Positions 2,582-28,497 of a stretch of 33,385 nt of DNA are shown here, in pieces. The first letter of the stretch is position 1. Each line of letters starts with the position of its first letter. The notes under the pieces were generated by a model. The model had not been told where the DNA came from. It ran no database searches and saw nothing but the letters and a program-made list of their open reading frames with translations. Origin of the DNA: Oscillospiraceae bacterium (GTDB lineage: Bacteria > Bacillota > Clostridia > Oscillospirales > Acutalibacteraceae); the NCBI GenBank assembly GCA_031283835.1, contig JAITBA010000081.1, forward strand, positions 1 through 33,385. Direction: 5' to 3'. The position numbers and the translations under genes are program-made.

Positions 2582-3976
2582 ATGCAACGAACCGAAATTG
2601 CGAGGATTTTTGAAAACCCGGTCGCCTGGGCGGAAGGCGAAATTGTGGTGTGCGGTTGGGTGCGCACCCTGCGAGATTCGAAGGCCCTGGCCTTCATGCA
2701 AATGAGCGACGGGAGCAGCTTTGCGCCGCTGCAGGTGGTGCTGGAGGACGGCAAAACCGACGATTTTAAGACGGCGCGCAAGTGGGGCGCGGGCACGGCG
2801 GTTTGCGTCACGGGCACCCTGGCACTCACCCCCGAGGCAAACCAGCCCTTTGAGCTGCACGCCGCCCGCATAGCGCTGGAGGGCGCGTGCGACAGCGGCT
2901 ACCCCCTGCAAAAAAAGCGGCACAGCGTCGAATTTTTGCGCACGATTGGCCATTTGCGCCCCCGCACCAACCTGGTTGGCGCGGCCCTGCGGGTGCGCAG
3001 CGCGGCAGCCTTTGCCCTCCACAGCTTTTTTGGGGAGCAGGGTTTTCTCTATGCCCACACGCCCATCATCACCACCGCCGACGCCGAGGGCGCGGGTGAA
3101 ATGTTTTTGGTGACCACCCTGCCCATGGACGAAACGCCGCGCACACAAGAAGGGGCGCCGGATTATGCGCAAGATTTTTTTGGCAAGCCCGCGCACCTAA
3201 CCGTTTCGGGCCAGCTGCAAGGCGAGGCAATGGCCATGGCCTTCGGCAAAATCTATACCTTCGGCCCCACCTTTCGCGCCGAGGACTCCCACACCCAGCG
3301 CCACGCGGCGGAATTTTGGATGGTGGAGCCGGAAATCGCTTTTGCCGACCTGGCCGACGACATGGCGCTGGCCGAGGCGATGCTCAAATCCGTCGTCGCA
3401 CAGGTGACGCAACAGTGCCCCGCCGAGCTGGCTTTCTGCGCGCAATATGTCGACCCCGGCCTGACCGAGCGCCTGCAAGGCGTGCTGCGCGCCGACTTTG
3501 CCCGGGTAAGCTACACCCGGGCCATCGAACTGCTGCAGCCCTTTTCAAATGATTTTGACTACAAGCCGGTTTGGGGCTGCGACCTGCAAACCGAACACGA
3601 ACGCTGCCTAACCGAAAAAATCTTTGCGCGGCCCGTGTTTGTCACCGATTATCCAAAGGACATCAAGGCGTTTTATATGCGGCAGAATGACGACGGCAAA
3701 ACCGTGGCAGCCATGGATTTGCTGGTGCCCGGGGTGGGCGAAATCATTGGCGGCAGCCAGCGCGAGGAGCGCGCCGACCGGCTAGAAACGCGCCTGGCCC
3801 AAATGGGCGGCGACCCCGCGGCCTACCAATGGTACCTGGACTTGCGGCGCTTTGGCGGCTGCAAGCACTGCGGCTTTGGCCTGGGCTTCGAGCGCCTGGT
3901 GATGTATCTGACCGGCATCCCCAACATTCGCGATGTCATTGCTTTTCCCCGCACCGCGGGCAACGCCGCGTTTTAA
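2582..3976 (+). CDS. asnS: Asparaginyl-tRNA synthetase (class IIb aaRS)
   Basis: Has an N-terminal OB-fold anticodon-binding region (VCGWVRTLRD), class II motifs (FRAEDSHTQRHAAEFWMVEPE, GSQREER, GFGLGFERLVMY), and a length typical for AsnRS. The ATG at 2582 lies 1 nt after the upstream stop. Confidence 0.92.
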   Translation: MQRTEIARIFENPVAWAEGEIVVCGWVRTLRDSKALAFMQMSDGSSFAPLQVVLEDGKTDDFKTARKWGAGTAVCVTGTLALTPEANQPFELHAARIALEGACDSGYPLQKKRHSVEFLRTIGHLRPRTNLVGAALRVRSAAAFALHSFFGEQGFLYAHTPIITTADAEGAGEMFLVTTLPMDETPRTQEGAPDYAQDFFGKPAHLTVSGQLQGEAMAMAFGKIYTFGPTFRAEDSHTQRHAAEFWMVEPEIAFADLADDMALAEAMLKSVVAQVTQQCPAELAFCAQYVDPGLTERLQGVLRADFARVSYTRAIELLQPFSNDFDYKPVWGCDLQTEHERCLTEKIFARPVFVTDYPKDIKAFYMRQNDDGKTVAAMDLLVPGVGEIIGGSQREERADRLETRLAQMGGDPAAYQWYLDLRRFGGCKHCGFGLGFERLVMYLTGIPNIRDVIAFPRTAGNAAF

Positions 3977-7336
<3,360 letters not shown>

Positions 7337-10406: not shown

Positions 10407-12857
10407 ATGGAACCGGTATCGACAAAGGCCGCAGGGCCGCGGTTGTTAGGGCGCATTCTGGAATGTATAAAAAACACACAAAAAGCAGAAAAGCAAACGC
10501 ACCGGCTGCGCAGTCTTGTGCTGCTTGCGGCGGCGGAGATGGGCGCGGCCGTTTTGGCGGGCTTGCTCACGCGGCCGGGGCTGGCGGGCGGGGCGTTTGC
10601 CCCGGCGGCACCCTTCGCTATGGCGCTGGCGGCGGCGGGCAGCGTGCGTTTTTTGGGCATGGAGGTTTTTGGCATAGCGGCGGGCAGCTTGCTGCTGCTG
10701 CCCTACCCGTCGTGCGTCACGGTGATGGCCGCAGGGGCGGCGGCGGGCCTGCTAAACCTTGCCTGCCGCAAATGCGGTGCCAAGCGCACGGTGGCCGCGC
10801 CCTTAAGCGCCTGCGTCTGCGCGGCGGCGGCGTCTGTGCTCTCGTTTGCCGCGGCCCCGCCGGCGCAAGAGATTGCCTGGGTGTTTGCGCTGTGCGGCGC
10901 GGCGCTGGCGGGCTGCATGGCCTATTTTATTGTCCAGGCCCAAGGCGTGCGCGGCGCGGGGCCGCGGGCTTTGCTCCCTCAAGATTGCGCGGCGCTGCTG
11001 CTGTGCTGCGGCATGTGCCTGAGCGCCTTCGGCGGTTATACCCTCGGTCTGTTTTGCCCGGCGCGTGTGGTGGGCGTGCTGCTGGTGCTGGCGGCGGCGT
11101 GCTGCTGGCGCGAAACCGGCGGCGCGGTGGCCGGGCTGTGCGTTGGCCTTTCGCTCACCCTTGCGGGGGGCGACCCTTCGTTTGCCGCCGTGTATGGCCT
11201 GGGCGGCCTGCTGGCCGGGTTCATGGGCTGTGCGGGCTTTCAACGTCGACGGCGGCGACCCAAAACCGACGCGATGGTGCGCACGACCCTCCCTGCGGCG
11301 GGCGGGTTTGCGCTGGCAAGCGTATTCTATGTTGCCTTGCGCGGTGCCGCCACGCCTGACCCTTCGGACGTTGTGATTTTTGCCCTCGAAACCCTGGGGG
11401 CCGTCGTCGTTTTTGCGGCTATCCCCGCGCGCGTGTGGAACACCTTGCGTGTTGCCGCCCAAAAAAACGCGCAAGTCGCCCTGCCGCCCGCCGAATCGCA
11501 GGCCAAGCTGCGGCTGGCGCAAACCGCCATGGCACTGCGGCGCGTGGGGGAATACATCAGCGAGGTTTCGGCAGGGCTCGAAAAATTAAGCGAGAACGAC
11601 AGCGCGCTCTTGTTTGCCGCGGCAAGGCAGCCCGTTTGCGACCGCTGCGAAGACCGTGACAAGTGCCAACAGCGCTTCACGGCCTTTGATGCCTGGGCGG
11701 CCAAAACCCTGCGCCGCAGCCGCGATGTCACCCAGGAAGAAATTGTGGACGCAAGGCACGCCTGCGGCATTCGCGCGCCCTGCAAGCAGCCCGAAGAGCT
11801 GCGGGCCGCGCTGGCGTGCGCCTGCAACGCAAACACCACCCCCGAAGCCCATAGCGTAGCGGAATCTCAGCTGCGCCAAATAGCGGCGGCGCAGTTCGAA
11901 ACCCTTGCGGCCTTGTTAGACGAGTTGGGCGCGCAACTGGAACAAAGTGCCGCCGCCGAAGACGAAATGGTGCAAACCGCCCTGCGCGTGCTGGAAGATC
12001 ACGGCTTTCGGGCGCAGGCCGTGGCCGCAACCCGTGGCACAACGCCACAAAACCCCGCCCACCTCGCAGCCGCCGTGCACCCGCGCGAACATCACAGCAC
12101 AAAAAAAACACTCGCAGCCGCCCTCACGCGCGCCACGGGCATTCCTTTTGCTCTTTCAAAAACCACGCCCCTGGCCGAAGGCATGCTGCTCACCTTCGCC
12201 CAAGCCCCGCGCTACCGGCTCGAAACCGGCGCGGTGCAAATGAGCTCCAGCGCTTCGGCCTACTGCGGCGATTATTTTGACTGCTTTGACGACGGCATGG
12301 GCCGCGAAGTGCTGGTTATCAGCGACGGCATGGGCACCGGCGGGCGCGCGGCAGTCGATTCTGCCCTGGCGGCGGAGGTGTTTGGTGCCTTGGCGCGCTG
12401 CGGCGTTGGTTTTAAAAACGCGGTGAACGTGGTCAACCAGGCCCTGCTGCTCAAAAGCTGTGACGAAACCCTCGCTACCCTCGATGTCGTCGGCGTTAAC
12501 CTCTACTCCGGCGAAGTCTCGTTCTGCAAAGCGGGCGGTTCCGTCTCGTTTTTGCGCCAGGGCGCCAAAGTCACGCGGCTCGAACTTAGCGCCCTCCCCG
12601 CGGGCATCCTGCGAACCATCTGCCCTGCCCAGGCCCAAACCACCCTTGCCCCCGGCGATATCCTTGTCATGGTTTCCGACGGCATGCTCTGTGGCGGCGA
12701 CGCATGGCTTTGCCAAGCGCTGGCCCGCTGGCCCGGCGGCACCATGCAAGCCCTAGCCGACCACCTTGCCGCCCTAGCCGTTGGTCAGCGTGAACAATCT
12801 GCCCGCGAAGACGACCTCACCGTTTTGTGCGCACTGCTGCTTCTTCAAAAAAACTAG
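10407..12857 (+). CDS. spoIIE: Stage II sporulation protein E (polytopic membrane domain + PP2C phosphatase)
   Basis: Has about 10 hydrophobic helices in the first ~330 aa, a central regulatory region, and a C-terminal PP2C domain (YCGDYFDCF, VISDGMGTGGRA, ATLDVVGVNLYSGEVSFCKAGG, GDILVMVSDGM) closely resembling B. subtilis SpoIIE. Its stop codon TAG is formed at the junction with the MITE-like element. Confidence 0.85.
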   Translation: MEPVSTKAAGPRLLGRILECIKNTQKAEKQTHRLRSLVLLAAAEMGAAVLAGLLTRPGLAGGAFAPAAPFAMALAAAGSVRFLGMEVFGIAAGSLLLLPYPSCVTVMAAGAAAGLLNLACRKCGAKRTVAAPLSACVCAAAASVLSFAAAPPAQEIAWVFALCGAALAGCMAYFIVQAQGVRGAGPRALLPQDCAALLLCCGMCLSAFGGYTLGLFCPARVVGVLLVLAAACCWRETGGAVAGLCVGLSLTLAGGDPSFAAVYGLGGLLAGFMGCAGFQRRRRRPKTDAMVRTTLPAAGGFALASVFYVALRGAATPDPSDVVIFALETLGAVVVFAAIPARVWNTLRVAAQKNAQVALPPAESQAKLRLAQTAMALRRVGEYISEVSAGLEKLSENDSALLFAAARQPVCDRCEDRDKCQQRFTAFDAWAAKTLRRSRDVTQEEIVDARHACGIRAPCKQPEELRAALACACNANTTPEAHSVAESQLRQIAAAQFETLAALLDELGAQLEQSAAAEDEMVQTALRVLEDHGFRAQAVAATRGTTPQNPAHLAAAVHPREHHSTKKTLAAALTRATGIPFALSKTTPLAEGMLLTFAQAPRYRLETGAVQMSSSASAYCGDYFDCFDDGMGREVLVISDGMGTGGRAAVDSALAAEVFGALARCGVGFKNAVNVVNQALLLKSCDETLATLDVVGVNLYSGEVSFCKAGGSVSFLRQGAKVTRLELSALPAGILRTICPAQAQTTLAPGDILVMVSDGMLCGGDAWLCQALARWPGGTMQALADHLAALAVGQREQSAREDDLTVLCALLLLQKN

Positions 12858-13018
12858 GGCGTGTTGACACTACCCGAAATGTCCAGATTTTGAGCGGATT
12901 TTTTGCCGGGCAAGGCAATTTTTTTACAGTCATACTTTCGTATTACAAAAAAAATAACGCAGAACGGCGGAAAATCCGCCAGAAGATGGGCGTTGAGCGT
13001 TAGTGTCAACACGCCCTA
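12855..13018. mobile_element. MITE-like miniature inverted-repeat element, copy A (164 bp including flanking TA dinucleotides)
   Basis: The 18-bp perfect terminal inverted repeats are TAGGGCGTGTTGACACTA and TAGTGTCAACACGCCCTA. The interior is non-coding and AT-rich. A near-identical copy lies at 28277-28440 (3 mismatches). The flanking TA on both sides is consistent with a TA target-site duplication (IS630/Tc1-mariner style). Confidence 0.6.
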
Positions 13019-13031
13019 GGTGCCGGCGGCG

Positions 13032-13424
13032 CTAGTCGCGCTTCGATTTTCCGTAGCCGTAGCCGCCGATGCCGCCCGCGAGCACACCGCCCGCGGCATA
13101 GAGGATTTTCTCAATCAAGTTGGGGTTATCGCGGAAGAGCACTAAGATGACCACGACAAGAATGGCCGCGACAACGCTGCCCGCAAACAGCAGCAGGTGG
13201 CGGGTCTGGGTTTCTTTGTGCTGGAACGCAATGCTTTTTTCTCTGATTTCCTGGTCCCGCGTAATATGTTCCCCGGTCACTTTGTCTGCCAGCGGAGAAC
13301 TGTTCATCCTGCCAAAGATCGCCATCATCGTCTGCGTTTTTTGAATCACTTCCGTTGGAATATCTTCTAGCACTTCGTTGGCTTCCCCCATCTCCTTGGA
13401 GATATCCGCTTCTGGTTCAGGCAT
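13032..13424 (-). CDS. Hypothetical membrane protein (acidic N-terminus, one TM helix, Gly-rich C-terminus)
   Basis: Strong RBS GAGGGAGGGG 6 nt upstream of the ATG at 13424. The start overlaps the upstream gene's stop (ATGCCTGA), indicating coupling. Contains the TM segment LLLFAGSVVAAILVVVILVLF and a Gly-zipper GGVLAGGIGGYGYG. The longer track ORF begins at a TTG. Confidence 0.5.
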   Translation of the reverse strand: MPEPEADISKEMGEANEVLEDIPTEVIQKTQTMMAIFGRMNSSPLADKVTGEHITRDQEIREKSIAFQHKETQTRHLLLFAGSVVAAILVVVILVLFRDNPNLIEKILYAAGGVLAGGIGGYGYGKSKRD

Positions 13425-13722
13425 TGCGCCCCTCCCTCTTGCCGCCGTGTTTTTTTTCAATCTCCTCAAGATACGCCGCCATCAGGCAGCCCATAAGCAA
13501 GTTCTGCTGTTCTTGTTCGGCCAGCTTGCTTTTTGCCAGCGCAAGCTCCATGTTGTTGTTTGTTTGTTTGCCCTCCAGCCGCAGTTGCAGGTCAAACAAG
13601 CGCAATTCCAAGGGCTGCACAATGGTGTCCATTGCCTCGGAGGCAAGGATTTCTTTTTGCTTTTTTGCGCCGGGCCGCACCGCCATTGTTGTTGCGCGCA
13701 TGATTTTCCCTTCTCTTTTCAT
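13417..13722 (-). CDS. Hypothetical small coiled-coil protein (about 101 aa)
   Basis: ATG at 13722 has a GGAGGTG RBS, with a TATAAT box about 25 nt upstream. Predicted helical: LELRLFDLQLRLEGKQ...LAKSKLAEQEQQNLL. Translationally coupled to the downstream membrane protein. Confidence 0.45.
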   Translation of the reverse strand: MKREGKIMRATTMAVRPGAKKQKEILASEAMDTIVQPLELRLFDLQLRLEGKQTNNNMELALAKSKLAEQEQQNLLMGCLMAAYLEEIEKKHGGKREGRNA

Positions 13723-13853
13723 CGGCACACACCTCCAAATTATACTATGCGCCAAACGCGGCAAAAGCCCCCCATTGGCACAAAGGTCTCGTGTGGCAGT
13801 TCCACATCATTTGCATTGTGTTTGCGGCCTTTGCCTGTGCCGCGTCAAAACCG

Positions 13854-16232
13854 CTATATTCCCGCAACAACCACACTGCCGTTCTCTTGGCTAAGCTGCA
13901 CGCTGTGCAGGTGCGCGTCGAGGTTTTCCACCAGCAGGGCGGTGATGGGGTCCTCCACCTGGCGGCGCAGCACGTTGCGCAGGTCGCGGGCCCCGCGGGT
14001 GCCGCCAAGCGCTTTGGCGGCCAGGGTCTGCACCGCTTCGGGGTCCCAGCCAAACACAATCCCTTTTTCGGCAAGAGAATCTTTCAGTTCCTGCAATTGC
14101 AGTGTGGCAATTTGCGCAAAGTCCTCTTGCGCAAGGTCGTGGAACACCACAATTTCGTCTACGCGGCCCAAAAATTCGGGTCGCAAAAATTCTTTCAGTG
14201 CCTTCATAGCGCGCTCTTGGGTGGCAGTCTCGCGGGTTTTGCCAAAGCCAAGGGCGTTTTCTTTGCGGTCGCTGCCCGCGTTGGAGGTCATAATGATCAC
14301 GGTGTTCTCGAACCCCACCTCGCGGCCCTGCGCGTCGTGAATACGGCCTTCGTCAAGAATTTGCAGCAGTATGTTCATAACATCGGGGTGGGCTTTTTCG
14401 ATTTCGTCAAACAGCACCACGCTGTAGGGCTTGCGGCGCACTTTCTCGGTGAGCTGCCCCGCCTCGTCGTAGCCCACATAGCCCGGCGGGGAGCCGATGA
14501 TGCGGCTGACCGCGTGCTTTTCCATAAATTCCGACATATCCAGGCGGATGAGGGTTTCGGGTTTGTCAAACAGCTCCGCGGCCAGGCGCTTGACCAGCTC
14601 CGTTTTGCCCACGCCCGTGGGGCCAACAAAGATGAACGACGCCGGGCGGCGCTGTGGGCTGAGCTGCACGCGGCTGCGTCGAATGGCCGCCGCCACCTTG
14701 GCCACGGCCTCGTTTTGCCCAATAATATGCGTGCGCAGCACGGTTTCGAGGTTTTGCAGGCGGCGGATATCGCTTTCGATCACTTTTTGCGCGGGAATGC
14801 CCGTCCACAGTTGAATCACACGGGCCAGGTCGTCTTCTGTGACAAGGTTGTTTGCCGCCAGAACCTTCAGGGTCGCCGCGTGGGTTTCTTCGCGAATCAT
14901 CTCGGAGCGGATGACCGAAATTTTTTCATAATCCACATCCCGCGCGTCCATTTGTTGCTGCTGTTCTTGCGCCAGCCTCGAAAGTTTGCGGCGCACTTTT
15001 TCCAGCTCGTCGATGGCGCTGTTGCGCAGGTTGGCGCAGGTGCAGGCCTCGTCCAGCAAGTCGATGGCTTTGTCGGGCAAAAACCGGTCGCTGATATACC
15101 GCTCGCTGAGCACCACAGCCTTGCGCACAAGGCCGTTGGTCACCTTCACTTTATGAAAGCTCTCGTAGTATTCTTTAATGCCCTCCAAAATTTTGCAGGT
15201 GTCGTCGACCGAAGGCTCTTCCACTTTTACGGGCTGCAATCGCCGCTCCAGCGCGGCGTCTTTTTCAATGTATTTCCGATATTCGGTGAAGGTTGTGGCC
15301 CCCACAATCTGCACTTCGCCCCGGCTCAGCGCGGGCTTGAGGATGTTTGCGGCGTTCATGCTGCCGTCGGCATCGCCCGCGCCCACAAGGGTGTGCACCT
15401 CGTCCACAAACAGGATGATATTCCCCAACGCCTTCACTTCTTCAATTAGGCCTTTGATTCGCGCCTCAAACTGCCCGCGAAACTGCGTGCCCGCCACCAG
15501 CGCGGTCATGTCGAGCAGGTGCACTTCTTTTTCGCTCAGGCGCGAGGGCACCGTGCCTTCGGCAATGCGCAGGGCAAGGCCTTCGGCAATGGCGGTTTTG
15601 CCCACGCCCGGCTCGCCAATGAGGCAGGGGTTGTTTTTGGTGCGGCGGCAAAGAATCTGCACCGTGCGATAAATCTCGTCTTCCCGGCCAATGACGGCGT
15701 CCAGTTGCCCGGTTCGCGCCTTTTCGGTCAGGTCCGCGCAAAACTGCGAAAGATATTTGCGGGCTTTCTCTTTTTTGCCTTTGCCCTTGCGCTCCCCGCG
15801 CCGTGGAGCCGAAACCGGCACAGCGTCGGGCGGCGGTTCTTCTTCGTCAATGTCAAAGTCGGCCGCGTCGTCTTTGCCTTCGCTTTCGGCGATAAAGCGC
15901 ATGGCCGCGCTGTCGTCAAAATCAGCGGCATCCATGGGTTCCCCCAGCTGGAACGCGCCCTCCACGGGGGTAAGCCCCGGCAGGTTCCGCATCATCTGCC
16001 GAAAGATCTCTTCGCCGCCGTTTTCAAATAGCGCCCCCATCTGCTCCCCGGCGTTTTCAAGCTCTTCCTCGGGCATGCCCATGTTGCGCAGCATGGCCTG
16101 CACCTGGCCAATATTCATCTCCATGGCGCACTGCAGACAATAGGCGGTCTGCGCCGCGCTTTGGTTCACCATGCGGTTGACAAAAAACATTGCGGGGCGC
16201 TTGTGGCAGCGCGAACATAGTAACTGGGACAT
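13854..16232 (-). CDS. clpE: Clp ATPase of ClpE type (N-terminal Zn-ribbon + two AAA+ modules)
   Basis: N-terminal Zn-ribbon CSRCHKRPA...CLQCA. D1 Walker A is [21 protein letters not shown] and D2 Walker A is [17 protein letters not shown]. There is an IGF-like ClpP-docking loop region. 792 aa. Confidence 0.85.
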
Positions 16233-16270
16233 GAGTTTGCCTTTCGTTTGTCACTTGGGTAGTGGAAAAA

Positions 16271-16376
16271 TTTTAAACTTTAAACTTTTAAATTTTATAG
16301 CTGATGCAGTTGAAGAGTGCCTTTAAATTTTATAGCCGATGCAGTGGAAGCGCACCTTTCAGTTGAAGCGCGTGCG
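16271..16376. repeat. AT-rich tandem direct repeats in the clpE upstream region
   Basis: The heptad AAACTTT occurs twice in tandem. Two units of about 36 bp follow (TTTTAAATTTTATAGCtGATGCAGTtGAAGaGtGCC and TTTAAATTTTATAGCcGATGCAGTgGAAGcGcaCC), then a third partial unit CAGTTGAAGCGCG. On the clpE-coding (minus) strand each unit carries TATAAAAT. Confidence 0.5.
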
Positions 16377-16415
16377 AGGCTTTTTGCGGAGGATTTTCGC
16401 CTTTCCGCGTCGTGC

Positions 16416-17054
16416 CTACGCTTGCGCGTCCTTCTCTTTTCCAAATAGCTTCCGGTACGTATCCGGGAAGTAGCTGAAAAAGGCCACAAAGGTGAGCACC
16501 AGGTTGAGGACGACCAAAATTTGCACGGCGAGGGCGGGCAAAGACCACCACTTTGCCAGCACGCCCACTTCGGGCCCGGCAAGAAACAGCAGAACCATCA
16601 CGCTATAGAACACGGCCGTGGCGGCTTTGCCCCAAAATTCGGCGGCGGCGGGCCGTTTTTTTAGCAGCAGCATAAGCCCCGCAAAGGCCAACATAATCAC
16701 CTCTTTGGCAATAAACAGCAAAAACACCCAGGCAAAGGCGTGCATCCAGGGGTTTGACGCCGCGTCGGCGCCGCGAAACTTTAGGAACATCAGAACGGCC
16801 AAGGTGACCTGTGTGAGCTTGTCGGCTGTTGGATCGAGGATTTTGCCCAGGTCGCTCACCTGGTGGGTGCGGCGGGCGATTGTGCCGTCCAATTTATCCG
16901 AAAGCCCCGAAAGCGCCACCAGCACCAGCGCCAGCACCATGTGCCCCGGCGTCATATAGGCCCAGACAAACAACGGGATGATGAGAATACGCACGACAGA
17001 AATCACATTGGGGATGGTGAACACCCGGTTCCCGTTTTTGCTTTGCTCTGCCAT
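16416..17054 (-). CDS. pgsA: CDP-diacylglycerol--glycerol-3-phosphate 3-phosphatidyltransferase (CDP-alcohol phosphatidyltransferase family)
   Basis: The CDP-OH phosphatidyltransferase motif DKLDGTIARRTHQVSDLGKILDPTADKL (D-G-x2-A-R...G-x3-D-x3-D) is present, with multiple TM helices. RBS AAGGAG upstream. 212 aa. Confidence 0.85.
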   Translation of the reverse strand: MAEQSKNGNRVFTIPNVISVVRILIIPLFVWAYMTPGHMVLALVLVALSGLSDKLDGTIARRTHQVSDLGKILDPTADKLTQVTLAVLMFLKFRGADAASNPWMHAFAWVFLLFIAKEVIMLAFAGLMLLLKKRPAAAEFWGKAATAVFYSVMVLLFLAGPEVGVLAKWWSLPALAVQILVVLNLVLTFVAFFSYFPDTYRKLFGKEKDAQA

Positions 17055-17099
17055 AGAAACATCTCCTTTGCAACTTTTATACTGTGTTTATAAGTCAAA

Positions 17100-17789
17100 T
17101 CAAATTTCGAACGCCAAATGGGTTGCAACGCGGGAGCCTTCGACGGCCAACCGCATGGTGTCGCCGCCCAAACGCAGTGCCGCCGCCGCGCGCAGCAGCA
17201 GGGCCAGCACCACCAGCATTAGCAGCCCTTTCACAATCCCCAGCCCCGCGCCCAATAATTTATCGGCCTGTTTGAGCACCGGCAAGCGCTTGATTTTCTC
17301 GATTTTGCGGCAAATTGCACGGGTGACAAACAGCAAAGCCGCAAACAGCACAAACCGCAGTGCCAGGCGGAACACCGTCACCGCAATGGGTGCTACAATC
17401 GTCTGCTCCAGCAGCGCGGCCGCGTTTTGCGCGGTGAACTGCTGCGCCGTCAACTGCTCTGTTAGCCCGGCGACCGAAAACCGTGCCACCGCCGCCAGGT
17501 TCACCAGCGCTTCGGGCAGCGCCGCGAACATTTTTTGCGCGGCCTGTGCCGCGTCGCCAACGGGCAGCGTGCCAATGTTCCGCGCAATCATGTCGCGCGC
17601 CGCGTTTTGCGCAAAGATTTCGTAGAGCGGCCGGGCCAGCAGGTCGCCCAGCGTGCTTGCCAGCGCAATGCTCACAATCCACGCGCCCAACTGCAGCGCA
17701 CAGGCAAAAAAGCCCCGTTTTGCCGCGGCAATCACCACCGCCGCAAACGCCGCCAGCAATATCCCGTCCAAAACCCAGCCTGCCATCAT
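17100..17789 (-). CDS. cvpA: CvpA-family membrane protein (colicin V production protein-like)
   Basis: Begins MMAGWVLDGILLAAFAAVVIAAAKRGFFACALQLGAWIVSIALA, matching the CvpA N-terminal pattern, with four predicted TM helices. RBS GACGGAGGG lies 6 nt before the ATG at 17789. The track ORF extends further to 17822. Confidence 0.65.
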   Translation of the reverse strand: MMAGWVLDGILLAAFAAVVIAAAKRGFFACALQLGAWIVSIALASTLGDLLARPLYEIFAQNAARDMIARNIGTLPVGDAAQAAQKMFAALPEALVNLAAVARFSVAGLTEQLTAQQFTAQNAAALLEQTIVAPIAVTVFRLALRFVLFAALLFVTRAICRKIEKIKRLPVLKQADKLLGAGLGIVKGLLMLVVLALLLRAAAALRLGGDTMRLAVEGSRVATHLAFEI

Positions 17790-18121
17790 GGCGCGCCCTC
17801 CGTCTTTTGTGTACGAAAACATCTCCTATAATATAGTATACCACGTTTTTTCTCGAAAAGCAAGCCCTTGCTGTCGAATTCCCGCGCTGCCCTTTTTGTC
17901 CAGCCCCGCCATCGCGTCCTTGCCGTGCTTGTCGGCTTTGTCTATCTCAATTTTAGCGGAAAATCCGTTGACGTTGGGCACGGAGAGCAGCCCGATGGCG
18001 GTGCTGTCGTCTGCCCTGCTTTTTTATACTGTTTTGCGAATAGAAACAACACTCCCCCCATCCCTGAACGCCTATACAAAAATTGCATGGGCGTATTTTT
18101 TTGAGAAAGGAATTGAAAACA

Positions 18122-18706
18122 ATGACAAAATTTGCCTATGTACGCATCTCAACGGCAGAACAGAACGAACTGAGACAGGTTATCGCCATGGAGGACCTCA
18201 AAATCCCAAAAGAAAACATCTACATGGATAAGTTGTCGGGCAAAAACACCGCGCGTCCGGGTTTGCAAAAACTTTTAGCCACCGTAAAGCAGGGCGACGT
18301 CATCTATGTTGAATCCTTCAGCCGCTTTGCCCGCAATACAAGGGATTTATTAGATCTTGTGGAACAACTCTCCGAAATGGGCGTGGGATTTGTGAGCCTG
18401 AAAGAAAAAATCGACACAGGCACACCCACGGGCAAGTTTATGCTGACCGTGTTTGCGGGCATCGCCGAACTCGAGCGGGCTTTCATTTTGCAGCGTTCAA
18501 GGGAGGGCATTGAAGCGGCAAGACGCGCGGGCAAACACCTCGGCAGACCAGTAAAAAACGCCCCCGATGACTTTGACACGCTGGTCAAAGACTGGGAGCG
18601 CAAGGTGATTCCACTGTCAAAAGTCCTCGAACAGTGCGGCAGCATCAGCGAGAGCACCTTCTACCGAAGACGCCGGGAACACCGCATTATCAAAGGAAAA
18701 AAATAA
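18122..18706 (+). CDS. Small serine recombinase (resolvase/invertase family: catalytic domain + C-terminal HTH)
   Basis: Begins MTKFAYVRISTAEQNELRQ with the catalytic Ser in the YVRIST motif. Has the resolvase-type core (GDVIYVESFSRFARNTRDLLDLVEQL, GVGFVSL) and a C-terminal HTH. About 195 aa, a size typical of Hin/Gin/Fim-type invertases. Its stop lies 8 bp from the left inverted repeat. Confidence 0.88.
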   Translation: MTKFAYVRISTAEQNELRQVIAMEDLKIPKENIYMDKLSGKNTARPGLQKLLATVKQGDVIYVESFSRFARNTRDLLDLVEQLSEMGVGFVSLKEKIDTGTPTGKFMLTVFAGIAELERAFILQRSREGIEAARRAGKHLGRPVKNAPDDFDTLVKDWERKVIPLSKVLEQCGSISESTFYRRRREHRIIKGKK

Positions 18707-18713
18707 AGAAAAC

Positions 18714-18740
18714 TGTCAAAAGGCATACCTTTTGAGAGCG
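18714..18740. repeat. Left inverted repeat of the putative invertible segment (27 bp)
   Basis: Exact reverse complement of 18869-18895. Confidence 0.8.
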
Positions 18741-18794
18741 GTCGGGGTTGAAGAAAATTATTGAAAAATTCATAGATTGTCTTCAATTTTGCTG

Positions 18795-18823
18795 TTGCAT
18801 TTTTCGATAAAATGTGTTAAAAT
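18795..18823 (+). promoter_or_regulatory. Sigma-A type promoter inside the invertible segment, currently oriented toward the downstream island operon
   Basis: TTGCAT at 18795-18800, 17-nt spacer, TAAAAT at 18818-18823. The first downstream gene starts at 18949. Confidence 0.55.
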
Positions 18824-18868
18824 AGACAAGTTATTAGGGTTTTGGTTCGAAAACGCCCGAAATTTGCT

Positions 18869-18895
18869 CGCTCTCAAAAGGTATGCCTTTTGACA
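18869..18895. repeat. Right inverted repeat of the putative invertible segment (27 bp)
   Basis: Exact reverse complement of 18714-18740. Confidence 0.8.
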
Positions 18896-18948
18896 ATTTG
18901 CAGTAGACAGGTACAATCCAAATAAATGGGCTAACGGGGTGAATTTGT

Positions 18949-20121
18949 ATGGCGATAATCAACAGGATCAAATATGATGGAAATGCCGATGGTTCTTCGT
19001 GGCTGGTGCATAAGTATCCCTCAGAGAGCTTTGTTCTTGGTTCTCAATTGATTGTCAACCAAGGGCAAGAGGCGTTGTTTCTCAAAGGCGGCGCGGCTCT
19101 CGACCTGTTTTCTGCGGGTACGCACACGCTAGCAACAGGCAATCTTCCCCTGCTAAACAAATTGGTCAACCTTCCCTTTGGCGGCAAAACCCCTTTTGCC
19201 GCCGAGGTTTACTATGTCAACAAAACAGCACGTTTGGATTTGGGCTGGGGAACAAGCAATCCCATAGACTTTGAAGACCCGAAATATCATATTTTCTTAA
19301 ATGTAAGGATCAACGGTCAGTTTGGTATCACCATCAACGATACACGGCTCTTTATCTCGCGTATCATCGGCGCGGTTCCAAACGGCTCTGTTTCGAACTA
19401 CCTTGTTATCTTAAAATATTTTAACGGCGTTATTAACACGAAAGTCAAGTCAATCGTAGCAAAATTCATGCTGGAAAAGAATATCTCGTTTCTTGAAATA
19501 TCAGCGCATCTTGATGATTTATCAGGCGTGTGCCAGTCGGCTATTAGTGAAGAATTTGAGCGGTTTGGCGTTGAGATAGTAAACTTCTTTGTGGAAACCA
19601 TTAAACCGCGCGAGGAAGATCTCGAGGCGATGAAAAAGAAACGCGAGGAAGTTTCCGCAATGAAGCTCGAATTGGGTGAGCTTGGGCGTGACTTCTACGC
19701 ACAAAGACGCTCGTTTGATGTAATGGAAGAAATGGCGGGCACCCCTGGATCCGGCGAATTGGCGAATGCGGGAATCGGTCTTGGAATAGGGCTTGGCGCG
19801 GCGGGTCAAATGGGCGGTGCGTTTGCCGGAATAGCGCAAAACATCAATCTCAACCCGCAACCTCCAGCTTCGGGTGGGGCGCTTAAATGCACAAAATGCG
19901 GCGCAGGTAATCCTCCGGGTCAAAAATTCTGTGGTACATGCGGTGAAAAGATTGAGCTTGGAATTAAATGCGCAGACTGCGGTGCTGTCGTTCCGCCGGG
20001 GCAAAAATTTTGCGGAGAGTGCGGAAAACCGATAGCTAATATTAAATGTCCGGCTTGCGGCGTCGAAAATGCGCCCACTCAAAAATTCTGCGGCGGATGC
20101 GGCAATAAATTGGGAGGTTAA
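18949..20121 (+). CDS. SPFH/band-7 (stomatin/prohibitin-like) domain protein with three C-terminal zinc-ribbon modules and a Gly-rich linker
   Basis: The N-terminal ~260 aa look SPFH-like (COG4260-type architecture). A Gly-rich low-complexity linker (GIGLGIGLGAAGQMGGAFAG) follows. Three CxxCG...QKFCGxCG zinc-ribbon repeats are at the C-terminus. The gene is AT-rich relative to the backbone. Confidence 0.75.
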   Translation: MAIINRIKYDGNADGSSWLVHKYPSESFVLGSQLIVNQGQEALFLKGGAALDLFSAGTHTLATGNLPLLNKLVNLPFGGKTPFAAEVYYVNKTARLDLGWGTSNPIDFEDPKYHIFLNVRINGQFGITINDTRLFISRIIGAVPNGSVSNYLVILKYFNGVINTKVKSIVAKFMLEKNISFLEISAHLDDLSGVCQSAISEEFERFGVEIVNFFVETIKPREEDLEAMKKKREEVSAMKLELGELGRDFYAQRRSFDVMEEMAGTPGSGELANAGIGLGIGLGAAGQMGGAFAGIAQNINLNPQPPASGGALKCTKCGAGNPPGQKFCGTCGEKIELGIKCADCGAVVPPGQKFCGECGKPIANIKCPACGVENAPTQKFCGGCGNKLGG

Positions 20122-20124
20122 GAA

Positions 20125-20730
20125 GTGGCAACATTAAAGGTTTCTGTTTTAGAATGTCCGCAATGCGGCGCTCCCGTCAAACCGGGAAGCAAAACCTGTG
20201 ATAGATGTTACTCTGAGTACATCGTCACGTCCGTCAGTAGCTTGAAAAAGTTTGACAGCTCCGGCATCAAGAAATATCTTGACGGCTACAAAAAGAATGT
20301 GGGGCTTGGCTGCGAAAGCGCCGAACTCTACACAGCAATGGGCATATGCCATCTAACGCGAAAGGTTTACCCTCACGCAATTAATTATTTTGAAAAGGCA
20401 ATTGCCTTGCTGCCAGAGGACGGCGACACGTATTATTATGCGGCGGTCGCTTTGCTGGAGGGGAAAAAGGCGTTTCTGACGAACAGGCCGGTTATTGATA
20501 AAATCGAAACATATCTGGCGAACGCACTGGGATTGGATGATAAGCCTGAATACTATGCTCTCTATGCGTACATAAAGTACGATTACTTTTTCAGAAAATC
20601 ATTCAACACATCGCCAACATACCGTGAGCTTCTTGTCGAGGCAATCAACCACGGGTTCAACCGCTTTGAATCCGATGCCTTATACGAAACGCTTTCGGTT
20701 GCTTGTCCAGGCCCGCTTGTGGTCCGCTAA
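20125..20730 (+). CDS. Hypothetical protein with an N-terminal Zn-ribbon (CPQCG...CDRC) and a helical, TPR-like C-terminal region
   Basis: GTG start 4 nt after the upstream stop, with RBS GGGAGG 7 nt upstream. Has a CxxC-x13-CxxC ribbon and a helical repeat region rich in Tyr/Ala/Leu. Confidence 0.55.
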   Translation: MATLKVSVLECPQCGAPVKPGSKTCDRCYSEYIVTSVSSLKKFDSSGIKKYLDGYKKNVGLGCESAELYTAMGICHLTRKVYPHAINYFEKAIALLPEDGDTYYYAAVALLEGKKAFLTNRPVIDKIETYLANALGLDDKPEYYALYAYIKYDYFFRKSFNTSPTYRELLVEAINHGFNRFESDALYETLSVACPGPLVVR

Positions 20731-21000
20731 CATTATGTTTTCCCCATCAAAAAACCCGTGCATGTTTCGTGTTCCAATGTTGGGTTTTGGGGTTACACAT
20801 CGGAGCACAACGATGTTTTGAGGGAGGAGCGTTGAATGTCTATGGAAAATATTTGGCGTGGCAGCGGATAAATTTTTCCATGAATGGGTTTCGGCATCCT
20901 ATTGTTAAAATGCCGCAAAAGGTTCGTACAAATGCCGCTCGGTAATGAACCTTAAAATCTCTTGAGCGGCAAATCAAAAATTTTTGGGAGGAATTTTTTT

Positions 21001-21579
21001 ATGGCACAGACATCAACCACGGAACAACAACAGCGGTTATCGCAAATAAACTCACTTAAAACGGTAGCGAATGCAGAGCAGAAAATTGTAATTAATTATT
21101 TCACACAGTCTTGCTTCGGACCGAAGGATGAGAAATTCGACCAGGTTGTGAGCTCCTTGCGTTCGCGCCTGAATACTCGCCAAATGGCACTTAACAAAAT
21201 TGGCTTGGATGAAGATCAGTTAAAAGAAATTCCAGATATCTGCTTTGAAGGTTTCCAAACTGACACATGGAATAACGGAAAAATTGAAGGTTTTAGTAAA
21301 GCGGGCGCAGATACGCGTTGGCGTTCAGGCAAGTACGCTATAACGCACTTGTTTTTCTCACCTACGCAAGTTTATATGTATAAATACGAATTTTCTCTTT
21401 ATAGCAACGACAGGAAAGAGCGTACAGAAGAGTATTTTTATAGAGACATCACAAACTTCTCTACCTCCGACGAAACCGTTAATGCATATAACCCAAACTG
21501 CATAGGCGGTGTTAAGGTGGTTCCAGTTAGTACGCAGAGGTTTGAGTTGATTGTTCCGGGCGACCGTAATGAATATTGA
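21001..21579 (+). CDS. Hypothetical protein; paralog of the gene at 22192 (unknown family)
   Basis: RBS GGGAGG 9 nt upstream of the ATG at 21001. It shares the N-proximal segment QKIVINYFTQSCFG (QKKVIKYFNSTGLLG in the paralog) and a C-proximal block THLFFSPTQVYMYKYEF...EYFYRDITN with the 22192 gene. Confidence 0.55.
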   Translation: MAQTSTTEQQQRLSQINSLKTVANAEQKIVINYFTQSCFGPKDEKFDQVVSSLRSRLNTRQMALNKIGLDEDQLKEIPDICFEGFQTDTWNNGKIEGFSKAGADTRWRSGKYAITHLFFSPTQVYMYKYEFSLYSNDRKERTEEYFYRDITNFSTSDETVNAYNPNCIGGVKVVPVSTQRFELIVPGDRNEY

Positions 21580-21623
21580 ACAGAGCGTACGGGCGATGAA
21601 GGCAAAACTCCGCGAGAAGAAGA

Positions 21624-22115
21624 ATGCCTAAACGGAACAGGCAGGACAGCACGACCATATGGGATATTCTTGACAATCCTGCTGTTTGTGACGAAGAAAG
21701 CAGGGAACTTATCAGACCCGTGATTAAAATTAAAACGGTTATTATTTCTGTATTCGTTTGTTTGGTGATTACGGGTCTGATTTCTTTCGCACTCTCCTGC
21801 ATTGTTTGCGCTGTTTTAAAAAGCAAACAAGTAACGACGGTGGATGTGCATAGTGTTCTATTCATTTGCTTGTTGACCTGTTACATTCTTCTGTTCTTGC
21901 TGAGCCTAAGAAGAATCATGATTTTTTTCGTTATGCTTTATCAAGCTAAGGCAAGTGACCAAACCCGTTTAAGATGTGTTTTTGTCCCCAGTTGCTCTGA
22001 GTATATGATTTTGTCTCTAAAAAAATATGGGGCTATTGTTGGTCTCATCAAGGGGATTGGAAGATTACATCGTTGCAGAAATTCATACGGCATTGGCGGC
22101 GAGGACTATCCATAA
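21624..22115 (+). CDS. Membrane protein with a C-terminal YidD-like domain (membrane protein insertion efficiency factor family) and a two-TM N-terminal extension
   Basis: The C-terminal ~65 aa (MIFFVMLYQAKASDQTRLRCVFVPSCSEYMILSLKKYGAIVGLIKGIGRLHRCRNSYGIGGEDYP) match the YidD signature (FYQ...C-x-F-x-P-[ST]-C-S-x-Y ... RL-x-RC-x-P-x-GG-x-D-P). The N-terminal ~95 aa form two hydrophobic helices. An internal ATG at 21918 would yield a YidD-only 65-aa product, so the start is ambiguous. Confidence 0.55.
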   Translation: MPKRNRQDSTTIWDILDNPAVCDEESRELIRPVIKIKTVIISVFVCLVITGLISFALSCIVCAVLKSKQVTTVDVHSVLFICLLTCYILLFLLSLRRIMIFFVMLYQAKASDQTRLRCVFVPSCSEYMILSLKKYGAIVGLIKGIGRLHRCRNSYGIGGEDYP

Positions 22116-22191
22116 AACGAGGTTTTTCAATGGGTTTAGGCGTTGTCCCAAAATCAATGTCAAAAAGCAATAATTTAATGGAGGTAATATT

Positions 22192-22974
22192 ATGTTTCGT
22201 GCACTAAAAAGCAACGGCAATAAAGACTTTGCAAATAGCATAAGAGTTGGTACCGGCTTCATAGGGATGCGCGGCAGAACAAGCGAGCAAAAGAAAGTCA
22301 TCAAATACTTTAACAGCACAGGGCTTTTGGGCGCGATTTTCGGAATATCCAATGCCACGTTTGATGCGATTTTAGGTAACAAAATAAACGCTTGCAGGCA
22401 ATGGATTAACGCGCGGGCATTAAATGTGCATGGTATGGATGCTGACGAAGTCAAGGAAACTACCCCTATTCTTGTTGAAAACTATGCCTCTGAAAGCCGT
22501 TTTTTCAAAATATTCAATGACCGTACATTCCGCACCTCTGAATATCAGGTGACTTATTTGTTGTTTGGCGAAAAACAGATGTATGTGTATAGTCATACTT
22601 TCGACCTGACCAGCGAAAACACTACCGAACATACGAGAGAATATTTCTATGAGGATATAACCAACGTGGATGTCACTCAAAAGAAAATTGAATTTCCAAA
22701 TCCGCGTCCATTGCGGTATCTTTTGGGCGGAATTGGTTGTATTGTGCTCGGTGCATTGTTGGCACTTATCCCATTTATCGGCGTTCTCTTTGCCGTGTGC
22801 GGTCTTGTCGCAGGAATTATCGTAATGTTTTTCTTAGGTTATTCCCGGAGTGTAGTAGATAATTTGGTTTTGAGGCTGACCGTATCCGGCGATGAGTTTA
22901 TCTGTGCTATGAAGCCCGAAAACATGGCTGCGATACAGGGAATGAAAGCGAAAATCAGGGAAAAGAAAAAATAA
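22192..22974 (+). CDS. Hypothetical membrane-anchored protein; paralog of the 21001 gene with an added C-terminal TM helix
   Basis: RBS GGAGGT 8 nt upstream. It shares the EYFYEDITN block with the 21001 gene and has a hydrophobic segment LRYLLGGIGCIVLGALLALIPFIGVLFAVCGLVAGIIVMFFLGY. Confidence 0.6.
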   Translation: MFRALKSNGNKDFANSIRVGTGFIGMRGRTSEQKKVIKYFNSTGLLGAIFGISNATFDAILGNKINACRQWINARALNVHGMDADEVKETTPILVENYASESRFFKIFNDRTFRTSEYQVTYLLFGEKQMYVYSHTFDLTSENTTEHTREYFYEDITNVDVTQKKIEFPNPRPLRYLLGGIGCIVLGALLALIPFIGVLFAVCGLVAGIIVMFFLGYSRSVVDNLVLRLTVSGDEFICAMKPENMAAIQGMKAKIREKKK

Positions 22975-23027
22975 CAATTCTCGTTGTCGCGTGAGGCTAA
23001 AATGCAGTTAGGGGGGAGCGTTTCATC

Positions 23028-27698: not shown

Positions 27699-27703
27699 AA
27701 CCA

Positions 27704-27952: not shown

Positions 27953-27973
27953 GGAGGAAGGAGGCATGTTGAA

Positions 27974-28279
27974 ATGGGATTCAGGATAAATCACTCAAAG
28001 GTCATTTCACAGGCAAATTCCATTGCCGATGATGCTGACAGACTTGGTTCGCAGGTCAATCAGCTAACGGCAATGGAGCAGGATGTTCGCATGGCTTGGA
28101 AAGGGCAAGCCGCGGACACGTTTCTTAAAAGGCTTGCCACGCTGAAAGGTGAGATAAGCCGAACAAAGCAACAAATGGCTAATCTGGCTTCAACCATAAG
28201 GTATTGTGCCGATAGGATTCAGCGCGAAGACGAAGAAGCTGAAAGACGCGCCGCCGCCCTGAAAACCTCTGGCAATTAG
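27974..28279 (+). CDS. esxA: WXG100-family (EsxA/ESAT-6-like) small secreted protein
   Basis: 101 aa and predicted helical hairpin. The central W-x-G motif is MAWKGQAADTF. RBS AAGGAGGAAGGAGG upstream. Its stop TAG overlaps the first bases of MITE copy B. Confidence 0.75.
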   Translation: MGFRINHSKVISQANSIADDADRLGSQVNQLTAMEQDVRMAWKGQAADTFLKRLATLKGEISRTKQQMANLASTIRYCADRIQREDEEAERRAAALKTSGN

Positions 28280-28440
28280 GGCGTGTTGACACTATCCGAA
28301 ATGTCCAGATTTTGAGCGGATTTTTTGTCGGGCAAGGCAATTTTTTTGCAGTCATACTTTCGTATTACAAAAAAAATAACGCAGAACGGCGGAAAATCCG
28401 CCAGAAGATGGGCGTTGAGCGTTAGTGTCAACACGCCCTA
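28277..28440. mobile_element. MITE-like miniature inverted-repeat element, copy B (same orientation as copy A)
   Basis: About 98% identical to 12855-13018 (3 substitutions). Has the same 18-bp terminal inverted repeats and is flanked by TA on both sides. Confidence 0.6.
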
Positions 28441-28461: not shown

Positions 28462-28497
28462 GCCCCCTGCTAATTGATAGCAGGGGCTTTCATTTTC
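28462..28497 (+). terminator. Rho-independent terminator closing the island operon
   Basis: GCCCCCTGC-taattgata-GCAGGGGGC followed by TTTCATTTT. Confidence 0.65.

What the first reader, a model, noticed from the sequence alone, without database searches (positions are those of the whole stretch)
12855..13018. 164-bp MITE-like element in two near-identical direct copies, each inserted exactly at a gene end so that its flanking TA plus first base forms the stop codon
12855-13018 and 28277-28440 differ at only 3 positions. Each has perfect 18-bp terminal inverted repeats (TAGGGCGTGTTGACACTA … TAGTGTCAACACGCCCTA), a non-coding AT-tract-rich interior with short hairpins (GGCGGAAAATCCGCC), and TA on both flanks. 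That is the signature of a TA-duplicating IS630/Tc1-mariner-type non-autonomous element. In both copies the element's first three bases, TAG, serve as the stop codon of the upstream gene (spoIIE at 12855-12857; the WXG100 gene at 28277-28279). This implies insertion into the TA of a pre-existing stop codon. Copy A lies between convergent spoIIE and a small minus-strand operon. Copy B lies between the WXG100 gene and the island's terminator.
Basis: seen in the sequence. Interest (0 to 1): 0.7.

Follow-up and report, generated by a model that had tools for sequence, protein, structure and literature searches.

The report
Small hairpin transposon sitting on stop codons
Two near-identical 164-bp copies of a small non-autonomous transposon sit on the stop codons of two genes; the element belongs to the IS5 family rather than IS630, and its landing-site preference largely explains the stop-codon position, so it is an ordinary but undescribed mobile element.

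Summary
Window 12855-13018 and 28277-28440 are 164 bp long and differ at 3 positions. Each copy has perfect terminal inverted repeats, is flanked by TA, and supplies the TAG stop of the upstream gene (SpoIIE-like; WXG100).

It is a MITE, but not of the IS630/Tc1-mariner type. The exact 16-nt terminus GGGCGTGTTGACACTA also bounds 830-890-bp insertion sequences. Their two-ORF transposase is IS5 family (NCBIfam NF033580; Pfam DUF4096 plus DDE_Tnp_1). Their size and 2-bp duplication match the IS427 group.

Thirty-three independent insertions show the target 5'-YTAR-3' with TA duplicated. A TAA or TAG stop preceded by a pyrimidine is therefore a perfect target. Because the element starts with G, insertion there regenerates an in-frame TAG and leaves the protein unchanged.

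Across other genomes, 8-15 of 39 copies abut a stop codon. About 9-15% is expected from the available YTAR sites. This is a modest excess (p about 0.01), based on a crude gene model.

The whole element is a long hairpin kept by compensatory changes between subfamilies. Resident copies show no orientation bias relative to neighbouring genes and no sparing of paired bases, so a host RNA function is not supported.

Verdict: a new member of a known kind, of low to moderate interest.

The parts
12855..13018 (+). MITE copy A: TA + 160-bp element + TA. The + strand is the orientation in which the family aligns and in which the RNA hairpin is more stable.
12857..12872 (+). Left terminal inverted repeat of copy A (GGGCGTGTTGACACTA). 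It contains TTGACA, which is the -35 box of the transposase promoter in parent-type ISs.
13001..13016 (-). Right terminal inverted repeat of copy A
12855..12857 (+). TAG stop codon of the SpoIIE-like gene, made of the duplicated target TA plus the first G of the element. The second TA of the duplication is at 13017-13018, followed by G, so the reconstructed original site is C-TA-G.
10407..12857 (+). SpoIIE-family phosphatase gene (816 aa) whose stop is rebuilt by copy A. Its C-terminus lines up with orthologs, so it is not truncated.
13032..13469 (-). Convergent 145-aa ORF (no Pfam hit). Its stop lies 13 bp beyond copy A. Before the insertion the two convergent stops were 12 bp apart.
28277..28440 (+). 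MITE copy B: TA + 160-bp element + TA, in the same orientation as copy A
28279..28294 (+). Left terminal inverted repeat of copy B
28423..28438 (-). Right terminal inverted repeat of copy B
28277..28279 (+). TAG stop codon of the WXG100 gene, made of target TA plus element G. The second TA is at 28439-28440, followed by A, so the reconstructed original site is T-TA-A (original stop TAA).
27974..28279 (+). WXG100 gene (101 aa) whose stop is rebuilt by copy B
28464..28486 (+). Terminator-like hairpin plus T-run, not part of the element. Copy B is wedged between the stop codon and this terminator.

Best explanation
The element is a 160-bp non-autonomous transposon (MITE). It carries the 16-bp termini of a widespread clade of short IS5-family insertion sequences that resemble the IS427 group. 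It encodes no transposase.

Inferred mechanism: a transposase supplied in trans by such an IS binds the two termini and inserts the element into 5'-YTAR-3' sites, duplicating the central TA.

The element begins with G and ends with C. Insertion into the TA of a TAA or TAG stop codon that follows a pyrimidine therefore rebuilds an in-frame TAG. The upstream protein is unchanged, and the old third base is left downstream of the element.

Such sites are perfect targets that do little harm to the gene. Insertions inside genes are lost. This is why both copies here, and roughly a quarter to a third of copies in other genomes, sit exactly on a stop codon.

The two window copies are 98% identical, while the nearest relatives elsewhere are 75-80% identical. 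They are therefore recent products of one subfamily that is or was active in this Oscillospiraceae lineage.

The one sure consequence for the host is a 162-nt insertion, a stable hairpin if transcribed, between stop codon and terminator (copy B) or between two convergent genes (copy A).
For: Shown by tools:
- Two copies, 3 mismatches in 164 bp, perfect termini.
These include about 40 paired 145-265-bp elements and 760-890-bp elements.
- The long elements encode DUF4096 plus DDE_Tnp_1. The second ORF scores 133.5 bits against NF033580 (cut-off 110), and the ORFs overlap as for a frameshift.
- Size, two ORFs and 2-bp repeat match IS427-group elements in PMC3281130.
- One such IS end with the exact terminus lies in a Eubacteriales MAG (L059). 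Related ISs with variant termini occur on Clostridia-type contigs.
- Thirty-three insertions flanked by TA on both sides show Y at -1 (32/33) and R at +1 (33/33). Their flanks share no homology, so they are independent events.
- Full-length ISs have the same YTAR/TA flanks.
- Among 39 copies, 16 ends abut an open frame of at least 80 codons in the TAG frame, against 6 and 4 in the two control frames.
- With one consistent gene model, 8-9 insertions lie at stops against 12-15% expected (p = 0.012-0.017).
- SpoIIE orthologs end at the same aligned position as the window protein.
- No Rfam family matches the element.
Against: - No transposase gene of this type lies in the 33-kb window. The rest of the source genome was not available, so a partner in the same cell is not shown.
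- No empty site could be found. The closest SpoIIE orthologs are only 53% identical.
- The copy number in the source genome is unknown. A metagenome scan with a subfamily-specific 20-mer found only three relatives of 75-78% identity.
- The interior of the element shows no similarity to the interior or ends of the ISs sampled, so derivation from such an IS rests on the termini and target alone.
- Transposition has not been observed.
Confidence: 0.85

Rival explanations
1. One reading: an IS630/Tc1-mariner-derived MITE, mobilised by an IS630-family transposase that duplicates TA.
For: TA duplication and a small hairpin element with terminal inverted repeats fit IS630-derived MITEs such as RUP (PMC2229807). 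From my own knowledge, IS630 prefers CTAG, which is compatible with YTAR.
Against: Every full-length element bounded by the exact terminus encodes an IS5-family transposase. No IS630-type ORF was seen between such termini; the two other 970-1010-bp terminus pairs enclose ordinary host genes. A related annotated Pseudomonas IS with the terminus GGGCCTGTTAACGC is labelled IS5 family.
Confidence: 0.03
2. The hairpin has been taken over by the host as an RNA element in 3' untranslated regions (an mRNA stabiliser, RNase III site or terminator). On this reading its position just after stop codons reflects that function.
For: The hairpin is very stable. In the family alignment 29 of 46 consensus pairs show compensatory changes and 94% of cells are paired, against 81% in shuffles and about 45% in slid controls. 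In every copy one strand is more stable as RNA, in most by 10-25 kcal/mol, because of G-U pairs. For the copies aligned with the window element (A2, A3) the more stable strand is the strand that aligns, in all subfamilies. The stop-codon excess is about 2-3 times expectation.
Against: The orientation of the stable strand relative to the abutting gene is mixed, about 7 sense and 7 antisense. Within the commonest subfamily, substitutions are as dense at paired positions (45 over 132) as at unpaired ones (11 over 32). Changes to G-U (15) do not clearly outnumber changes to A-C (10). No T-run follows the hairpin, and the only terminator-like motif inside copy A is lost in copy B and absent from other subfamilies. 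No Rfam match was found.
Confidence: 0.08
3. The two direct copies act together, as the ends of a 15.6-kb composite transposon (12855-28440) or as substrates for recombination that gains or loses the segment between them, which includes the type VII secretion genes.
For: The copies are in direct orientation and 98% identical. The outer termini are intact. Copy B coincides with the right edge of a low-GC island.
Against: The low-GC island spans only about 18.5-28.4 kb, so its left edge is about 5.7 kb from copy A. Each copy has its own TA/TA flanks, consistent with two separate insertions. No second instance of the segment was found.
Confidence: 0.03

Closest known systems
IS427-group insertion sequences of the IS5 family (e.g. 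IS1248, ISPpa2, ISPaes1 of Paracoccus; PMC3281130)
   Same: The autonomous elements that share the MITE's exact termini are 830-890 bp. They have two overlapping ORFs (DUF4096, then the DDE domain), inverted repeats of 16 bp or more, and a 2-bp duplication.
   Different: The window element is 160 bp and has no transposase. Its interior is unrelated to these ISs. The GGGCGTGTTGACAC terminus was not found in any paper searched.
RUP of Streptococcus pneumoniae (107-bp MITE thought to be mobilised by IS630-Spn1; PMC2229807)
   Same: A small, non-coding, TA-targeting MITE in Firmicutes whose termini match those of a resident IS. Copies are highly similar to one another.
   Different: RUP's partner is an IS630-family element. 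Here the partner type is IS5 family.
Correia/NEMIS elements of Neisseria and ERIC/RU-1 of enterobacteria (PMC2229807, PMC2759123)
   Same: Palindromic MITEs of 100-170 bp found next to genes. They fold end-to-end into one long RNA hairpin.
   Different: Correia/NEMIS hairpins have been proposed to act on neighbouring mRNAs through RNase III cleavage. No such effect, and no orientation bias, is shown here. The termini and the partner transposase differ.
QMITE2 of Coxiella burnetii (PMC5896051)
   Same: A MITE that lands at the 3' ends of genes and interacts with the stop codon.
   Different: QMITE2 extends the ORF in frame (33 added residues in EnhC). The element here rebuilds the stop and leaves the protein unchanged.
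MiniMdi3 of Methylobacterium (about 400-bp MITE related to ISMdi3; PMC2680597)
   Same: A bacterial MITE recognised through its relation to an IS found in the same genomes.
   Different: Larger, and not reported as a hairpin. I did not check the family of ISMdi3.

Membership tests
Bacterial MITE (non-autonomous element with terminal inverted repeats) | Small size (under about 500 bp) with terminal inverted repeats | tested here: met
   160 bp with a perfect 16-bp repeat at each end, or 18 bp counting the TA.
Bacterial MITE (non-autonomous element with terminal inverted repeats) | Target-site duplication flanking each copy | tested here: met
   TA on both sides of both window copies and of 33 complete copies elsewhere.
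Bacterial MITE (non-autonomous element with terminal inverted repeats) | No transposase; only short ORFs | tested here: met
   The longest internal ORFs are 52-58 aa. No gene with the 52-aa product of copy A is on record in the collection. tblastn with the IS5 ORFs finds nothing in the window.
Bacterial MITE (non-autonomous element with terminal inverted repeats) | Multiple copies in unrelated genomic contexts | tested here: met
   Two copies in the window. About 30 aligned relatives come from 17 species-level Clostridia assemblies, and their flanks share no homology.
Bacterial MITE (non-autonomous element with terminal inverted repeats) | Presence/absence polymorphism (an empty site) at an orthologous locus | not testable with these tools
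   The nearest SpoIIE orthologs are 53% identical. The only other contig with the same WXG100 gene is 100% identical and also carries the element.
MITE derived from IS5 family, IS427-like group | Termini identical to those of an IS that encodes an IS5-family DDE transposase | tested here: met
   The exact 16-mer bounds elements of 760-890 bp in L022, L077, L023, L099, L089 and L079. Their ORFs hit NF033580, DUF4096 and DDE_Tnp_1.
MITE derived from IS5 family, IS427-like group | 2-bp duplication; IS about 800-1000 bp with two ORFs joined by frameshift | tested here: met
   TA duplication. IS sizes and overlapping ORFs. A related Pseudomonas IS has an A8 run at the ORF overlap. Group features are taken from PMC3281130. 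No ISfinder comparison was possible.
MITE derived from IS5 family, IS427-like group | A partner IS present in the same genome | not testable with these tools
   Only the 33-kb contig is available and it holds no such gene. The exact terminus next to orfA is seen in a Eubacteriales MAG (L059).
MITE derived from IS630/Tc1-mariner | Termini shared with an IS630-family element (DDE_3-type transposase) | tested here: not met
   All full-length elements with the terminus encode IS5-family proteins. Other long terminus pairs enclose host genes.
MITE derived from IS630/Tc1-mariner | TA target duplication | tested here: met
   This feature is shared with the IS427 group, so it does not discriminate between the two.
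Described structured RNA family (Rfam) | A match to a curated covariance model | tested here: not met
   No hit at gathering thresholds over the whole window, and none at E <= 1 over 12800-13080.

The most novel reading that the evidence does not exclude
This IS427-like clade and its MITEs may be built to use stop codons as safe landing sites. Three features fit together: a YTAR target, termini that rebuild TAG on either strand, and a transposase ORF in the parent IS that itself ends on the duplicated TA plus the target purine.

Separately, the 120-bp hairpin core may be a selected module rather than filler. It is kept by compensatory change across subfamilies. It also occurs with a second, different class of termini flanked by TAA, in Subdoligranulum variabile and in a Ruminococcus MAG.

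If both points hold, the core is needed for mobilisation or acts as RNA, and it can swap termini to recruit different transposases.
Probability: 0.15. Interest if true: 0.55.

Novelty: new member of a known kind. Interest (0 to 1): 0.3.

Why it matters
This documents a MITE family that I could not find described, and its partner IS type. It is spread through at least 17 species-level Clostridia genomes, mostly labelled Ruminococcus or Oscillospiraceae.

It corrects the family assignment from IS630 to IS5 (IS427-like).

It also gives a simple rule that annotators can use. YTAR-targeting elements whose first base is G will often be found fused to stop codons without altering the protein. Such a TAG is therefore not evidence of gene truncation.

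The repeats also break assemblies: many contigs end inside a copy.

If the stop-codon excess and the conserved hairpin core prove to be selected, the family would be a tractable case of a transposon adapted to harmless sites in compact genomes.

Tried and rejected
- **Rfam.** Nothing at gathering thresholds or at E <= 1.
- **Near-identical copies elsewhere.**
  - The metagenome scan with AATCCGCCAGAAGATGGGCG gave only three relatives of 75-78% identity.
  - An exact-protein look-up of the 52-aa internal ORF found nothing.
- **Empty site.** SpoIIE homologs are at most 53% identical, so no DNA-level comparison was possible. The 145-aa neighbour is not on record.
- **Phage carriage.** Five solo 16-mer matches in viral contigs, with no element and no transposase. 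No match in the phage records.
- **Literature.** The terminus string appears in no searchable paper.
- **Derivation of the arms from IS ends.** No similarity beyond the terminus.
- **RNA-level selection.** No orientation bias and no sparing of paired positions within a subfamily. I therefore do not claim a host RNA role.
- **Promoter or terminator activity.**
  - No promoter-like site within either copy of the element.
  - Only one weak terminator-like motif, which is not conserved.
- **First stop-codon statistic.** The first estimate (15 of 39, p about 1e-5) mixed two gene definitions. With one consistent model it falls to 8-9 insertions and p about 0.01-0.02. That count includes the two window copies that prompted the question.
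- **Composite-transposon idea.** The GC island does not match the interval between the copies.
Full report
**1.

Window 12855-13018 and 28277-28440 are each 164 bp. They differ at three positions: 19 (C/T), 52 (C/T) and 72 (A/G). Similarity ends exactly at the element borders.

The first 18 bases, TAGGGCGTGTTGACACTA, are the perfect reverse complement of the last 18. The 16-mer GGGCGTGTTGACACTA occurs four times in the window, against 0.2 expected from shuffles.

ORF 10407-12857 has the Pfam SpoIIE domain. ORF 27974-28279 is a WXG100 protein. Each ends on the TAG made by the flanking TA and the first G of the element.

The window is a 33,385-bp contig of an Oscillospiraceae MAG; its SpoIIE protein is on record under that name. 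A Logan contig from run SRR14710909 is 100% identical to window 26951-28303 and breaks off 27 bases into copy B. That is what a repeat does to an assembler.

**2. What the element looks like**

The whole 164 bp folds end to end into one imperfect hairpin. As RNA the + strand gives -84.4 kcal/mol (z = -11.4) and the - strand -64.2 (z = -8.0).

It has no long ORF (52-58 aa at most). It matches no Rfam family. No promoter-like site lies within either copy. One weak terminator-like motif in copy A is lost in copy B.

**3. Relatives and the partner element**

Pairing forward and reverse matches gave two classes.
- About 40 elements of 145-265 bp.
- Elements of 760-890 bp in Dehalococcoidia, Thalassobaculaceae and Azotimanducaceae genomes.

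The long elements carry two overlapping ORFs.
- The first ORF is DUF4096.
- The second is a DDE_Tnp_1 domain. It scores 133.5 bits on NCBIfam NF033580 "IS5 family transposase", above the cut-off of 110.

tblastn found the same gene next to the terminus in Thermoguttaceae, Planctomycetaceae, Deferribacteraceae and Trueperaceae, and in one Eubacteriales MAG.

In that Eubacteriales locus (L059) the TTGACA inside the terminus is the -35 box of a perfect promoter (TTGACA, 17 bp, TATAAT) just upstream of orfA.

Related ISs on Clostridia-type contigs have variant termini such as GAAACTGTTCACACTA and GGGCGTGTTCACTCTA. An annotated Pseudomonas plasmid IS with the terminus GGGCCTGTTAACGC is labelled IS5 family and has an A8 run at the ORF overlap.

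Size (832-865 bp), two ORFs with a frameshift motif and a 2-bp direct repeat are the features given for the IS427 group of the IS5 family in PMC3281130. I therefore file the partner as IS5 family, IS427-like. I could not compare it with ISfinder.

No element with these termini encodes an IS630-type protein. Two longer terminus pairs enclose ordinary host genes.

**4. Target site**

Thirty-three insertions with TA on both sides have no flank similarity to each other, so they are independent events. The base before the left TA is C or T in 32 of 33. The base after the right TA is A or G in 33 of 33. Full-length ISs show the same flanks.

The target is therefore 5'-YTAR-3' with the central TA duplicated. 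A 4-bp duplication is excluded: the left pyrimidine is often T, while the base before the right-hand TA, the last base of the element, is always C.

The reconstructed empty sites in the window are C-TA-G (AAC TAG, copy A) and T-TA-A (AAT TAA, copy B). Both fit the target.

In the ISs the transposase ORF runs to the very end of the element (...SVNTP). It stops on the duplicated TA plus the target purine.

**5. Why the copies sit on stop codons**

A TAA or TAG stop after a codon ending in a pyrimidine is a perfect YTAR site. Because the element starts with G, insertion there gives TA+G, an in-frame TAG. The protein is unchanged.

SpoIIE orthologs end 5-12 residues after the conserved REDDLTVxC motif, as the window protein does. 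Nothing was truncated.

I tested how often this placement occurs in other genomes.
- Among 39 small copies (78 ends), 16 ends abut an open frame of at least 80 codons in the TAG frame, against 6 and 4 in the two control frames. Fifteen copies have at least one such end.
- With one consistent crude gene model (open frames of 80-150 codons), 7-9 insertions fall on stops. The expectation from YTAR sites outside gene bodies is 8.5-15% (p = 0.012-0.017).
- An earlier, more favourable figure mixed two gene definitions, and I do not rely on it.
- The count includes the two window copies that prompted the question. Without them the excess is weaker.

My reading is that target preference plus loss of gene-disrupting insertions explains most of the pattern. 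A further two- to three-fold excess is possible but not established.

**6. The hairpin**

Thirty-one copies from the window, 17 species-level Clostridia assemblies and two other phyla align over their full length.

The consensus fold has 46 pairs. Twenty-nine show changes on both sides that keep the pair. Overall 94% of cells are paired, against 81% in column shuffles and 36-52% when partners are slid. There are 147 doubly changed cells, against 38 in shuffles.

In every copy one strand is more stable as RNA, in most by 10-25 kcal/mol, because it has more G-U pairs. For the copies aligned with the window element (A2, A3) it is the strand that aligns, in all subfamilies.

This could suggest an RNA role, but three tests speak against a host function.
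- The stable strand is sense to the abutting gene in about 7 cases and antisense in about 7.
- Within the commonest subfamily, substitutions are as frequent at paired positions (45 over 132) as at unpaired ones (11 over 32).
- Changes to G-U (15) do not clearly exceed changes to A-C (10).

Resident copies thus decay freely. The pairing seen between subfamilies more likely reflects which copies go on to found new subfamilies, or how such palindromic elements arise. This is inference.

Hairpin MITEs with the same termini but unrelated interiors exist in Thermoguttaceae, Planctomycetaceae, Alphaproteobacteria and Hydrogenophilales.

**7. Limits**

- No partner IS lies in the window.
- The copy number in the source genome is unknown.
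- No empty site could be recovered.
- Mobility is inferred, not observed.

**8. Comparison with known elements and novelty**

The element works like known bacterial MITEs such as RUP, Correia/NEMIS and ERIC (PMC2229807). It passes the MITE tests that could be run.

It fails the one discriminating test for IS630 derivation and passes those for an IS5/IS427-like partner.

MITEs that meet gene 3' ends are known. QMITE2 extends EnhC in frame (PMC5896051). The element here instead rebuilds the stop.

I found no paper containing the terminus sequence. It is a new member of a known kind, of low to moderate interest.

Noticed in passing
window 18710-18899: A second, unrelated inverted-repeat element of about 190 bp (31-nt arms, 97% complementary, 128 nt apart; arm core TGTCAAAAGGCATACCTTTTGAGAGCG). 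It sits in the intergenic region at the left edge of the low-GC island. The arm sequence occurs nowhere else in the window.
   Followed up: partly
window about 18500-28440: A low-GC island (42-48% GC against 55-63% in the flanks) holds an SPFH/zinc-ribbon gene, an EssC-like FtsK/SpoIIIE ATPase with an FHA domain (23028-27698), a YukD-like gene and the WXG100 gene. MITE copy B marks its right edge. There is no tRNA gene in the window.
   Followed up: partly
L117 2476-2642 (Subdoligranulum variabile OY725836.1) and L046 about 3398-3562 (Ruminococcus MAG): The same hairpin core of about 120 bp (72-76% identical to the window element) occurs with a different class of termini (GAATCTGTATTC... / GAACTTGTTCTCATAGGA) flanked by TAA. 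In S. variabile it lies directly on a TAA after an open frame (no gene is annotated in the record). This suggests the core is shared between MITE families served by different IS5-type transposases.
   Followed up: partly
L022 3074-3959, L077 5924-6809, L023 and L089 (full-length ISs): The transposase ORF runs through the right terminal repeat (...SVNTP). Its stop codon is made of the duplicated target TA plus the target purine. The coding sequence, the transposase binding site and the target preference therefore overlap, which may explain why the 16-mer is identical across many phyla.
   Followed up: partly
L059 150-225 (Eubacteriales MAG): The TTGACA inside the terminal repeat is the -35 box of a perfect promoter (17-bp spacer, then TATAAT) for orfA. 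This orfA copy carries an in-frame TAA where relatives have Gln, so it is probably inactive.
   Followed up: no
L122 about 135-185: A right IS end and a left IS end abut through a single shared TA (...TAGTGTGAACACTTCC-TA-GGGCGTGTTCACTCTA...). This looks like a tandem IS junction or a circle-junction remnant.
   Followed up: no
L017, L024, L064, L069, L098, L103, L109 (alignment A3): One MITE subfamily is nearly identical (0-5 differences in 164 bp) across MAGs that represent different species. This hints at recent horizontal spread of the element or its partner among Ruminococcus/Oscillospiraceae MAGs.
   Followed up: no
L055 2446-2461 (Planctomycetota MAG): The exact 16-mer also lies inside a long membrane-protein ORF (...PASSVNTPNPSK...) with no partner repeat. 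It is either a chance match or an old insertion remnant absorbed into coding sequence.
   Followed up: no
L016 3120-4131 (Ruminiclostridium MAG): An AraC-type regulator gene (3293-4111) is bracketed by a complete MITE on one side and a solo terminus-like sequence (2 mismatches, followed by TA) on the other.
   Followed up: no
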